DNA of 64,000 bases from a virus. The translations under genes and the position numbers were made by a program. Of the stretch, positions 656-2,431 are shown in pieces. The notes under the pieces are model-generated. The model had not been told where the DNA came from and ran no database searches. It saw only the letters and a list, made by a program, of their open reading frames with translations. Numbering within the stretch: position 1 is the stretch's first letter; the number at the start of each line of letters is the position of its first letter. Location: IMG/VR virus record IMGVR_UViG_3300031949_000002; one strand, 5' to 3'.

Positions 656-2431
656 ATGTTCGGACACGAGAGCGCTCCCAGCAGGTTCTACAGCTACGGC
701 TCCCGAGAGCCGTCCGTAAACATGGAGAAGGTCTCGGAGCAGATGTTCAAGGCGCACCGCTACCGGAACGACCTGGTCGAGCACGAACGCGCCAGGCGCG
801 CGAGGGTCGAGGAGATGCTCGTCAAGCTTTCTCCGCAGCTTCGCGACGTCGAGGAGAGGATCGCGAAGGCAAAGCAGGGCCTGGAAGGTGCCCGCACCGA
901 GATCAAGCGCGCGAGCGCCGCGGAGCGTCGCAAGGTGCGGCCTGCCGAGCCGATGAAGGCCGTATCGGAAGCTCGCGCCGCGCTCAAGGCGCTCTGGCCC
1001 GAGCGAAAGAGACTCCGCTCCGAACTCTTCTCGTCCGACGCCTGGATCAAGGCCAACGAAGAGATCGAAGTCTGGGCGAACGAGGAAGGGAAGAAACTCC
1101 GCGCTTCCTGCGGAGTGTTCTGGGGAACGTATCTACATGTCGAGAAGTCGATGCAAAGCGCGCGACGTGGAGCGCCTCCCAAGTTCAAGCGGTGGCGCGG
1201 CGACGGGCACCTCGCGGTCCAGTGCCAGGGTGGTCTTTCCGTGCCGGACGCGTTTGGATGCAAGGACTCCAGGATCCGGATCGAGCCGGTTCCGAGCGAG
1301 GCGTGGAAGCCGGGAGGTCGCACGCTCCGGAGGACCAAGGTGTGGTTCCGGATCGGATCGGAAGGGCCTCGGAATGACATTCCGGTCTGGGTCGTGCTCC
1401 CGATCGTCCTTCACCGGCCGATGCCGGAAGACGCGATGATTAAGTGGGTCCATCTGACGAGGGATCGGATCGGAACTCGGAGCAGATGGAGCGTACAATT
1501 CCTCCTTTCCCGGGCATCCGGGTGGGCGCGGCCGGACTCGGCGAAGACCGGGACGGTCGGTATCGACGTCGGGTGGCGTCTCCGAGACGACCGGTCGCTC
1601 CGAGTCGCCTATTGGGCCGGATCGGACGGAACGGAGGGAGAACTCGCCCTTCCGGCGGACTGGCTCGGCGAGATGAGACGGGTCGAGAGGATCCGTTCGG
1701 TCCGGGACAAGCTGTTCGACGCTGCCCGCGAAGCTCTCGCGCTCTGGATCGGAGAGACCCGTGAGGCGAAGCTGACGCTTCCGGACTGGCTCGAAGAGGC
1801 CGCGAAGACGCTGCCGAACTGGAAGAGCACGTCTCGGCTCGCCGCGCTCGTCCTGAAGTGGAGAGAGAGCAGATTCGAGATCGACCGTGCGGTACCGAGG
1901 AACGGAACGCTGGAGACGCTGCTTCGCGAGCAGGACAAGGAGAACCACCTCAAGCTCAGCGTCCTCGGCCGGGAAGGGATCTTCACGATCCTGGAGGCAT
2001 GGAGGAAGCGGGACAAGCACCTCCTGGAGTTCGAGGCGAATCTGCGCGATCAGTTGATCCACCGGAGGGAGGACATCTACAGGAACTTCGCTGCGGAGAT
2101 GAGGCGGAAGTACCGTACCGCGATCATCGAGGATCTCGACCTCCGGGATTTCCAGGAGCTTCCCGACGCGGAGGAGCCCTCGGAGGACGGTGCCCTCCGG
2201 GAGCACAGGAAGGACGCCTGTCTCTCCATTCTCCGGCGCTGTATCGTGGAGTCGATGACGGAGGTGAAGGAAGCTCCGAGGCAGAACACGACGAGGCTGC
2301 ACCACGCGTGCGGGAACATCGAGGATTTCGACCGGAAGCAGTTGAGGCATCGCTGCTCGCACTGCGGCGAGGAGTACGACCAGGACATGACCGCGGCAAG
2401 GAACCTGCTCGCGCGGACCGTGAGCGCCTGA
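656..2431 (+). CDS. cas12m: Compact type V effector, Cas12m (V-M/V-U1)-like, ~591 aa
   Basis: AAGGAG RBS before ATG 656; RuvC-I GIDVGWR, RuvC-II IIEDLDL, Zn finger HACG..CSHC, RuvC-III YDQD; N-terminal AHRYRNDLV, FWGTY, RWRGDGHLAVQ, LHRPMPEDA blocks recall Cas12m from memory; directly followed by array. Confidence 0.8.
   Translation: MFGHESAPSRFYSYGSREPSVNMEKVSEQMFKAHRYRNDLVEHERARRARVEEMLVKLSPQLRDVEERIAKAKQGLEGARTEIKRASAAERRKVRPAEPMKAVSEARAALKALWPERKRLRSELFSSDAWIKANEEIEVWANEEGKKLRASCGVFWGTYLHVEKSMQSARRGAPPKFKRWRGDGHLAVQCQGGLSVPDAFGCKDSRIRIEPVPSEAWKPGGRTLRRTKVWFRIGSEGPRNDIPVWVVLPIVLHRPMPEDAMIKWVHLTRDRIGTRSRWSVQFLLSRASGWARPDSAKTGTVGIDVGWRLRDDRSLRVAYWAGSDGTEGELALPADWLGEMRRVERIRSVRDKLFDAAREALALWIGETREAKLTLPDWLEEAAKTLPNWKSTSRLAALVLKWRESRFEIDRAVPRNGTLETLLREQDKENHLKLSVLGREGIFTILEAWRKRDKHLLEFEANLRDQLIHRREDIYRNFAAEMRRKYRTAIIEDLDLRDFQELPDAEEPSEDGALREHRKDACLSILRRCIVESMTEVKEAPRQNTTRLHHACGNIEDFDRKQLRHRCSHCGEEYDQDMTAARNLLARTVSA

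What the first reader, a model, noticed from the sequence alone, without database searches (positions are those of the whole stretch)
656..2431. Virus-encoded Cas12m-like effector retaining an apparent D-E-D RuvC triad
Seen: GIDVGWR, IIEDLDL and YDQD motifs plus a Zn finger in a ~591-aa protein with no cas1/2/4 nearby in the window. Recalled from literature: characterised Cas12m proteins bind and silence DNA without cutting, and MmCas12m has a degenerate RuvC-I. Inference: this may be a nuclease-competent or intermediate member on the TnpB-to-Cas12m path.
Basis: partly seen in the sequence, partly recalled or inferred. Interest (0 to 1): 0.75.

Follow-up and report, generated by a model that had tools for sequence, protein, structure and literature searches.

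The report
Giant-phage Cas12m with ordinary D-E-D triad
The gene is a genuine Cas12m (type V-M CRISPR) effector carried by a giant phage, but its intact D-E-D site is the normal state of this family and, in tested relatives, does not confer DNA cutting, so it is a new member of a known kind and not a missing link.

Summary
ORF 656-2431(+) encodes 591 aa with GIDVGWR (D304), IIEDLDL (E492), YDQD (D577) and an HxxC...CxxC zinc finger. No cas1/2/4 lies in the 64-kb window or in the 4.15 kb upstream.

It is a full Cas12m (V-U1/V-M):
- PADLOC Cas12u1 HMM E=5e-106.
- Solved Cas12m 23vw E=1e-76.
- A confident AF2 model (pLDDT 90) matches Cas12m2 and GoCas12m at TM 0.79-0.81, against 0.38-0.40 for Cas12f and TnpB.
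- A 25-unit array follows, and its repeats keep the Cas12m-type hairpin plus pseudoknot.

A phage origin is supported indirectly: 37 tRNAs plus a tmRNA, homing endonucleases, and relatives on CheckV-complete 180-192 kb viral genomes.

D-E-D is the majority state (204 of 243 relatives). Published D-E-D Cas12m orthologues bind but do not cleave. Within this clade the triad was lost at least 9 times, and the four triad-lost members I checked keep their arrays. The protein has the complete REC2 insertion, so it is not a TnpB-to-Cas12m intermediate.

Phage Cas12m with D-E-D already exists in GenBank (Rctr197k) and in a 2026 preprint.

Most likely function: RNA-guided DNA binding and silencing.

The parts
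656..2431 (+). cas12m gene (591 aa, type V-M / V-U1 effector)
   Evidence: PADLOC Cas12u1 E=5e-106, covering residues 10-588. PDB 23vw Cas12m E=1e-76; Cas12m2 8hio/8hhl about 8e-19. AF2 model pLDDT 90.4. Foldseek 8hhl TM 0.79, 8pm4 TM 0.81.
722..1165 (+). REC lobe: four long helices (residues 23-170), the REC2-type coiled-coil insertion with a conserved basic cluster R91-R92-K93
   Evidence: DSSP of the model. phmmer aligns residues 88-97 to the AAERRKARSD segment of Cas12m2, which holds R126 of its Arg-rich pocket (weak alignment; PMC10442227). R91 is Arg in 101 of 119 relatives.
1559..1579 (+). RuvC-I motif GIDVGWR; catalytic-position D304 (codon 1565-1567)
   Evidence: Translation. The column is D in 111/119 and 220/243 relatives.
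2123..2143 (+). RuvC-II motif IIEDLDL; E492 (codon 2129-2131)
   Evidence: Translation. The column is E in 102/119 and 210/243; it is replaced by K, M, R, A, G and others in the rest. hhalign places it on the IEDLN motif of the window's own TnpB.
2300..2365 (+). TNB zinc finger H549-x2-C552 ... C567-x2-C570
   Evidence: Pfam PF07282 E=2.8e-7. Cys columns are about 100% conserved.
2375..2386 (+). RuvC-III motif YDQD; D577 (codon 2384-2386)
   Evidence: Translation. The column is D in 115/119 and 239/243. It aligns to the DRD motif of TnpB.
598..623 (+). Solitary CRISPR-repeat-like unit in the cas12m 5' UTR (GCC..GGC pseudoknot, 6-bp stem, AC), 32 nt before the ATG
   Evidence: 6/6 stem pairs and 3/3 pseudoknot pairs; sequence read. 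Similar upstream units occur in relatives L008, L013 and L029.
2432..2587 (+). Leader between cas12m and the first repeat
   Evidence: No ORF and no anti-repeat. No consensus sigma-70 site was found here.
2588..4178 (+). CRISPR array, 25 units in the same orientation as cas12m. The repeats are strongly diverged but keep the hairpin, the pseudoknot and the terminal AC.
   Evidence: 20 of 25 units have a 6/6 stem, and 14 have a 3/3 pseudoknot (9 have 2/3). Only 2.3% of control AC-ending sites have a 6/6 stem. There are 22 distinct stem sequences.

Best explanation
This is a bona fide type V-M (V-U1) Cas12m effector encoded on a very large phage-like genome. It comes with its own 25-unit CRISPR array and has no adaptation genes. 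Inferred by homology: the cas12m-array unit is transcribed rightwards. Cas12m itself cuts the pre-crRNA inside each repeat; this step is RuvC-independent in MsCas12m and MmCas12m. Each crRNA keeps a 5' handle folded as a 3-bp pseudoknot plus a 6-bp hairpin ending in AC, followed by a guide of about 17-20 nt. The complex recognises a PAM, forms an R-loop and clamps the displaced strand in a basic REC pocket and at the metal-bound RuvC site. It thereby blocks transcription or replication of the target (a competing mobile element or a host gene) without cutting it. The D304-E492-D577 triad is the ancestral, majority state of this clade. It is most likely kept for metal-mediated strand binding or a minor activity, and is not a sign of a dsDNA nuclease. 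Shown here: family membership, architecture, triad statistics, array and crRNA structure, absence of cas1/2/4 and of a tracrRNA-like anti-repeat. Inferred: binding without cleavage, self-processing, biological targets.
For: Membership: PADLOC Cas12u1 E=5e-106 over the full length. phmmer to solved Cas12m 23vw gives E=1e-76 across residues 12-586, and that protein also carries D-E-D (IDLGWR, VLEEFTL, WDQD) and is deposited as a 'DNA-binding protein'. The AF2 model has pLDDT 90.4 and pTM 0.84. Foldseek top hits are Cas12m2 (TM 0.79) and GoCas12m (TM 0.81), and the next best (Cas12f, TnpB) fall to 0.38-0.40. NCBIfam TnpB models reach only 28 bits against a cut-off of 100.

crRNA: the array lies directly downstream on the same strand. 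Its units keep two helices by covariation that correspond to the two crRNA helices described for PmCas12m. There is no anti-repeat within 2.5 kb on either side.

Binding and not cutting: four D-E-D orthologues were among the eight tested by Bigelyte et al., and none cleaved dsDNA. Purified D-E-D MsCas12m showed no target or collateral cleavage, and its D274A mutant still processed pre-crRNA (PMC11013384). In this protein's own clade, 19 of 119 and 39 of 243 full-length relatives have non-catalytic triads (DKD, DMD, DRD, NAD, NGD, DLH, SMS and others), arising in at least 9 independent events. The four such members I examined keep arrays of 9-15 units (L002 D-L-H, L028 D-K-D, L029 N-C-D, L030 D-K-D). 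E492 is less conserved (86%) than structural residues such as W307, R308 and the zinc-finger Cys (98-100%).

Phage context: 37 tRNAs plus a tmRNA within about 15 kb, interleaved with HNH, IscB and TnpB genes. The source contig is 341 kb. Eighteen IMG/VR contigs carry relatives, three of them 180-192 kb and 87-100% complete by CheckV. GenBank Caudoviricetes record Rctr197k has the same gene-plus-CRISPR layout.
Against: Nothing here measures activity. An intact two-metal D-E-D site kept in about 84% of a clade whose members are only 36-57% identical is under purifying selection, which is also what an active nuclease would show. The published negative cleavage assays cover a few bacterial orthologues at most about 35% identical to this protein, under limited conditions. 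None is a phage protein. No hallmark virion gene was identified inside the window itself, so the viral origin rests on indirect signs. No spacer target was found, so the biological role is unassigned.
Confidence: 0.7

Rival explanations
1. Nuclease-competent Cas12m. The intact D-E-D site cleaves or nicks target DNA, so this phage clade represents the ancestral active state from which the H-D-D and N-D-D binders evolved.
For: The triad is intact, and its columns are 93%, 86% and 97% conserved in relatives of about 45% identity. The Fitch root state of the clade is D-E-D. A phage competing with other elements could benefit from destroying DNA. The authors of the myxophage preprint suggest possible nuclease activity for their D-E-D MvCas12m.
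Against: All D-E-D Cas12m tested so far fail to cleave (PMC11013384). The closest solved relative, also D-E-D, is deposited as a DNA-binding protein. The triad was lost at least 9 times, and the four triad-lost members I checked keep arrays. The Arg of the TnpB R-x-W-x-C motif aligns with a conserved Leu/Val/Ile here. That this Arg matters for catalysis is my recollection from Cas12f and Cas12a work and is not verified here.
Confidence: 0.15
2. The D-E-D site acts on RNA and not on DNA, for example trimming the 3' end of guides or cutting the gene's own 5' UTR at the solitary repeat. DNA targets are only bound.
For: PmCas12m cuts pre-crRNA both in the repeat and at guide position 17-18. Bigelyte et al. 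state that the processing site of Cas12m is still unknown. A complete repeat unit sits 32 nt upstream of the cas12m ATG, and similar units occur upstream in 3 of 18 relatives.
Against: MsCas12m D274A still processes pre-crRNA, and processing is reported as RuvC-independent for MmCas12m too. Triad-lost relatives keep multi-unit arrays that would still need processing.
Confidence: 0.1
3. An ordinary transposon TnpB, or a decaying relic, that merely lies beside a repeat region.
For: Pfam sees only the TNB domain. Two canonical TnpB genes and an IscB-like gene lie in the same window.
Against: TnpB family models score far below their cut-offs (28 against 100 bits). Full-length Cas12m HMM and structure matches are strong. 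The frame is intact with GC3 of 0.80. The gene-plus-array layout is conserved in many diverged relatives.
Confidence: 0.02

Closest known systems
D-E-D Cas12m orthologues of type V-M, e.g. MsCas12m from Meiothermus silvanus (Bigelyte et al. 2024, PMC11013384), and the solved D-E-D Cas12m 23vw
   Same: Same family and size class, the same D-E-D triad, a single crRNA with no tracrRNA, and an adjacent array. 23vw aligns over the whole length at E=1e-76.
   Different: The protein lies on a giant phage-like genome and has no cas1/2/4. It has a 29-residue insertion (about 410-438) absent from 23vw and Rctr197k. Its array repeats are all different, not homogeneous. Its activity is untested.
MmCas12m2 and GoCas12m (PDB 8HHL, 8HIO, 8PM4)
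   Same: The best structural matches (TM 0.79-0.81). Shared WED-REC1/REC2-RuvC-TNB layout, a coiled-coil REC2 with a basic cluster, and a long helical insertion in RuvC.
   Different: Only 21-22% identity. These proteins carry H-D-D, and this one D-E-D. They are bacterial and chromosomal.
MvCas12m of myxophage MV-1 (bioRxiv 10.64898/2026.09.14.751636) and the unannotated homologue in GenBank phage Rctr197k (KX853510)
   Same: Phage-encoded Cas12m with D-E-D, an adjacent array, and no adaptation genes or tracrRNA.
   Different: MvCas12m is 610 aa with D305/E463/D555, so the motif spacing differs. Rctr197k is 32% identical. MV-1 has a single consensus repeat and 8 spacers; here there are 25 units with 22 distinct stems.
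IS200/IS605 TnpB
   Same: Shared RuvC and TNB core; hhalign probability 97.6% over the last ~120 residues against the window's own TnpB.
   Different: TnpB lacks the REC2 insertion. Structural match is TM 0.39 by query. This gene has no transposon ends or omega-RNA and uses a CRISPR array instead.

Membership tests
Cas12m (type V-M, formerly V-U1) | Full-length sequence homology to the V-U1/Cas12m family | tested here: met
   PADLOC Cas12u1 E=5e-106, residues 10-588 on profile positions 4-530 of 533. PDB Cas12m 23vw E=1e-76; Cas12m2 8e-19; GoCas12m 1e-17.
Cas12m (type V-M, formerly V-U1) | Bilobed WED-REC1/REC2-RuvC-TNB fold of about 550-620 aa, with the coiled-coil REC2 insertion and a helical RuvC insertion | tested here: met
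   AF2 model pLDDT 90.4. Foldseek TM 0.79-0.81 to 8hhl and 8pm4, and 0.40 or less to Cas12f and TnpB.
Cas12m (type V-M, formerly V-U1) | Adjacent CRISPR array whose repeat forms the two-helix (pseudoknot plus hairpin) handle next to the guide | tested here: met
   25 units at 2588-4178 on the same strand. Stem 6/6 in 20 units; pseudoknot 3/3 in 14 and 2/3 in 9; both helices covary. The helices match those described for PmCas12m crRNA.
Cas12m (type V-M, formerly V-U1) | No tracrRNA | tested here: met
   No 14-mer with at most one mismatch complementary to any repeat in positions 1-2560 or 4200-7000. No Rfam hit in 1-5000.
Cas12m (type V-M, formerly V-U1) | PAM-dependent dsDNA binding without cleavage; self-processing of pre-crRNA | not testable with these tools
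   Comparative support only: repeated triad loss with arrays kept, plus published assays on orthologues.
Cas12m (type V-M, formerly V-U1) | Arg-rich pocket in REC that holds the non-target strand | tested here: inconclusive
   R91-R92-K93 align to the region of Cas12m2 that holds R126, but the alignment is weak. R91 is Arg in 101/119 relatives, and position 93 is K or R in 103/119. No coordinates were available to check the geometry.
Transposon TnpB (IS200/IS605, IS607) | Scores above the curated TnpB family cut-offs; HTH_OrfB and OrfB_IS605 domains | tested here: not met
   NCBIfam guided_TnpB 28 bits against a cut-off of 100; no OrfB_IS605 or HTH_OrfB Pfam hit. The window's true TnpB at 7638-8822 scores 357 bits.
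CasMu-V (Mu-transposon-associated type V; Altae-Tran et al. 2023, PMC10910872) | Cas12 lacking RuvC-III and linked to MuA/MuB transposase genes | tested here: not met
RuvC-III D577 is present. Flanking genes have no transposase family other than TnpB.

The most novel reading that the evidence does not exclude
The large, mostly phage-borne D-E-D branch of Cas12m, including this protein, retains a conditional RuvC nuclease or nickase activity that the assays on a few bacterial orthologues missed. It would then be the still-active ancestral state from which binding-only Cas12m (H-D-D, N-D-D, D-K-D and others) arose repeatedly.
Probability: 0.15. Interest if true: 0.7.

Novelty: new member of a known kind. 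Interest (0 to 1): 0.33.

Why it matters
As written, the finding adds one more Cas12m. D-E-D Cas12m and phage-encoded Cas12m are both already documented.

What is useful is the scale and pattern seen here.
- The family is very large: 3,124 clusters at 50% identity score E<=1e-30 in public metagenomes, whereas the 2024 study listed 134 variants.
- Every relative whose genomic context I examined lies on a phage-like or IMG/VR viral contig.
- The D-E-D triad is ancestral, yet it has been lost at least nine times, and the triad-lost members I checked keep their arrays.

This gives a natural series of paired D-E-D and triad-lost orthologues. With them one can ask why a non-cutting effector keeps a complete two-metal site. 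The compact phage orthologues are also candidate scaffolds for CRISPRi or base editing.

Tried and rejected
- The whole genome is not held, so virion hallmark genes of the source contig could not be searched.
- A single-sequence scan of IMG/VR found nothing. The profile scan found 18 loci.
- The scan of GTDB genomes used only one peptide pattern and returned 4 MAG contigs. It is too narrow to say how rare the clade is in cells.
- The Al-Shayeb 2022 Cell paper is not held.
- Searches for 'Cas12m4' and 'UnCas12m' found no paper, so the source and assays behind PDB 23vw and 23vu are unknown to me.
- Spacer targets: no match of any 20-nt guide (up to 3 mismatches) in the window or the fetched loci. 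No blastn match of the array in 50,697 phage records at E<=1.
- No Rfam family in positions 1-5000. No convincing sigma-70 promoter in the leader.
- Active-site geometry could not be measured because model coordinates are not exposed.
- The idea that a missing TNB arginine explains inactivity is kept only as a lead. hhalign puts the Arg of the TnpB R-x-W-x-C motif on conserved Leu563. I could not confirm from the held papers that this Arg is the catalytic helper.
- Rejected: a start at TTG 497. The Shine-Dalgarno sequence and the family N-terminus fit ATG 656.
- Rejected: the transposon TnpB reading.
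Full report
**1. Observation**

The frame 656-2431(+) is open for 591 codons.
- It has GC3 of 0.80.
- An AAGGAG ribosome-binding site lies five bases before the ATG.
- Its N-terminus coincides with the family consensus.

C567-x2-C570.

No adaptation genes are nearby.
- A PADLOC scan of 80 ORFs of the window found homing-endonuclease, HNH and restriction-type hits only, with no Cas1, Cas2 or Cas4.
- A second assembly of the same genome is identical over 12.4 kb. It shows 12 small genes without any Pfam family in the 4.15 kb upstream of the window.

**2. What it is**

Pfam sees only the TNB domain, and NCBIfam TnpB models score 28 bits against a cut-off of 100. This explains why such genes get annotated as 'transposase'. 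Family-specific evidence is unambiguous:
- The PADLOC Cas12u1 model (V-U1, now type V-M) matches end to end at E=5e-106.
- phmmer against all PDB chains gives a solved Cas12m (23vw) at E=1e-76 over residues 12-586. Cas12m2 (8hio/8hhl) follows at 8e-19 and GoCas12m (8pm4) at 1e-17.
- An AlphaFold2 model built on 35 relatives is confident (pLDDT 90.4, pTM 0.84).
- Its best Foldseek matches are Cas12m2 (TM 0.79) and GoCas12m (TM 0.81). Cas12f and TnpB then drop to 0.38-0.40.

The model has the four long REC helices (residues 23-170), which are the REC2 insertion that distinguishes Cas12m from TnpB (PMC10442227). It also has a helical insertion of about 150 residues between RuvC-I and RuvC-II, as described for GoCas12m. 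So the protein is a complete Cas12m and not a form halfway between TnpB and Cas12m.

**3. The RNA partner**

Directly downstream, on the same strand, lie 25 repeat units (2588-4178). Their sequences differ strongly: there are 22 distinct stem sequences. Yet they share one layout: three bases, two spacer bases, a 6-bp stem, a loop of 6-10, the return strand, then AC.
- The stem is fully paired in 20 of 25 units and has 5 of 6 pairs in 4 more.
- The three upstream bases pair with the first three loop bases in 14 units (3/3) and 9 units (2/3). The changes are compensatory: GCC:GGC, ACC:GGT, TCC:GGA, GCT:AGC, GGC:GCC.
- Only 2.3% of control sites ending in AC have a full stem.

These two helices correspond to the two helices reported in the PmCas12m crRNA structure. 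No anti-repeat was found in the flanks and no Rfam family matches.

I reached the same description independently and use it here only as evidence that the effector has a cognate guide RNA.

**4. Viral origin**

The window itself holds no recognisable virion gene. One ORF gives a weak 'head protein' PHROG hit (E=9e-10). The other signs fit a giant phage far better than a chromosome:
- 37 tRNA genes and a tmRNA, the tRNA genes within about 15 kb.
- HNH homing endonucleases, an IscB-like gene and two TnpB genes.
- Dozens of small ORFs without families.
- A 341-kb source contig.

Relatives support this.
- They occur on 18 IMG/VR contigs. Three of these are 180-192 kb and 87-100% complete by CheckV, and one of those three plus a 138-kb contig have terminase-like matches.
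- The GenBank Caudoviricetes record Rctr197k (197 kb) has a 32%-identical homologue annotated 'similar to transposase', followed by an annotated CRISPR region.

'Virus-encoded' is therefore probable but shown only indirectly.

**5. The D-E-D triad**

Three lines of evidence say it is ordinary.

(a) Literature. Bigelyte et al. 2024 selected eight Cas12m, four of them with D-E-D. They detected no dsDNA cleavage for any. Purified D-E-D MsCas12m cleaves neither target DNA or RNA nor collateral substrates, and its D274A mutant still processes pre-crRNA (PMC11013384). The closest solved relative, 23vw, also has D-E-D in the printed alignment and is titled a DNA-binding protein.

(b) Frequency. Among 119 full-length relatives from the word-indexed search, 100 are D-E-D. 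Among 243 relatives, after adding the representatives of 50%-identity clusters, 204 are D-E-D.

(c) Loss. The remaining 16% carry clearly non-catalytic combinations (DKD, DMD, DRD, NAD, NGD, DLH, SMS, HQD and others).
- These arose in at least nine independent events on a midpoint-rooted tree whose root state is D-E-D.
- Four such members that I fetched keep arrays of 9-15 repeat units just downstream: L002 D-L-H, L028 D-K-D, L029 N-C-D and L030 D-K-D.
- E492 (86%) is less conserved than W307, R308 or the zinc-finger cysteines (98-100%).

A family whose core function needed RuvC catalysis would not tolerate this. A family that binds DNA would. The still high conservation of the triad fits the role shown for Cas12m2. 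There the active-site residues hold a magnesium ion and the non-target strand, and their mutation weakens silencing (PMC10442227).

One further lead: hhalign places the Arg of the TnpB R-x-W-x-C motif on a conserved Leu/Val/Ile (L563) in this clade. That this Arg helps catalysis is my recollection from Cas12f and Cas12a work, and I could not verify it in the held papers.

**6. Most likely mechanism**

Taken together, the gene most likely encodes an RNA-guided DNA-binding silencer. It processes its own array transcript, recognises a PAM, forms an R-loop of 17-20 bp and blocks transcription or replication.

Because there is no adaptation module and the repeats have drifted apart, the guide set is probably old and fixed. 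It would be aimed at conserved sequences of competitors or of the host. No target was found in the window, in the fetched loci or in 50,697 phage records.

I put about 0.70 on binding without cleavage, 0.15 on a real DNA nuclease or nickase activity, and about 0.10 on an RNA-directed use of the site. The remainder is other possibilities.

**7. Comparison and novelty**

- D-E-D Cas12m has been published (2024).
- A phage-encoded D-E-D Cas12m was reported in a September 2026 preprint, which calls it the first.
- An unrecognised one is present in the GenBank phage record Rctr197k (KX853510).

This gene is therefore a new member of a known kind.

The clade has 3,124 clusters at 50% identity with E<=1e-30, and the 150th best hit still scores E=1e-164. 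Every relative whose context I examined lies on a phage-like or IMG/VR viral contig. Arrays are retained in the four triad-lost members I checked. This makes the question 'what is the intact site for?' directly testable with natural pairs.

**8. Side observation bearing on regulation**

A complete repeat unit (598-623; 6/6 stem, 3/3 pseudoknot) lies in the cas12m 5' UTR, 32 nt before the ATG, so the ribosome-binding site falls where a guide would be. Similar units lie 35-73 nt upstream of the gene in three of 18 relatives (L008, L013, L029), where about 0.7 would be expected by chance. This suggests feedback control by the protein binding or cutting its own leader. It was raised by another first-reader note (e1-5350927), and I only partly followed it up.

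Noticed in passing
window 598-623 and 184-211; L008:4944-4966, L013:4751-4773 and 4906-4928, L029:3932-3954: Solitary CRISPR-repeat-like units (stem 6/6, pseudoknot, AC) sit 32-34 nt upstream of the start codons of cas12m and of the preceding 115-aa Zn-ribbon ORF. Comparable units lie upstream of cas12m in 3 of 18 relatives. Possible autoregulation through the 5' UTR.
   Followed up: partly
window 624-631 and 3192-3199: The 'guide' after the 5' UTR repeat and the spacer after the repeat ending at 3191 both begin AGCGTGAT (8/8) and then diverge. This could be a duplication remnant or a seed match.
   Followed up: no
window 16971-18272 (-): IscB-like gene of 433 aa (RRXRR E=3e-70 plus HNH) inside the tRNA cluster. 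With Cas12m and two TnpB genes (7638-8822 and 54693-55958), the window carries three kinds of RNA-guided nuclease relatives.
   Followed up: no
window 6558-21669 (-) and 50217-50565 (-): 37 tRNA genes covering nearly all amino acids, plus a tmRNA with tag AEHKLLAAA, interleaved with HNH endonuclease genes. This is typical of huge phages.
   Followed up: partly
L002:7496-8014 and L028:3457-4014: Two triad-lost relatives (D-L-H and D-K-D) share a homologous gene of about 175-185 aa (46% identity) that overlaps the cas12m start. This window has no such gene. It could be an accessory partner of that sub-clade.
   Followed up: partly
L002:1509-2132: The 242-kb contig carrying relative P0053 also encodes a protein with the PF08798 CRISPR_assoc family (Pfam name as listed), followed by a 1.2-kb gene-free gap. 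It may carry a second CRISPR system.
   Followed up: no
L031 (KX853510.1 110803-114219): GenBank phage Rctr197k carries a D-E-D Cas12m homologue annotated 'similar to transposase' next to an annotated CRISPR region. This is an unrecognised phage type V-M locus in a public record.
   Followed up: yes
window 1883-1969 (residues 410-438): A 29-residue insertion in the RuvC helical region, absent from 23vw and Rctr197k. It has the lowest model confidence in the protein apart from the C-terminal tip (block means 61-80).
   Followed up: no
window 39375-41147 (-): A Ser/Thr protein kinase fused to TPR repeats (Pkinase E=3e-43) in a phage-like context.
   Followed up: no
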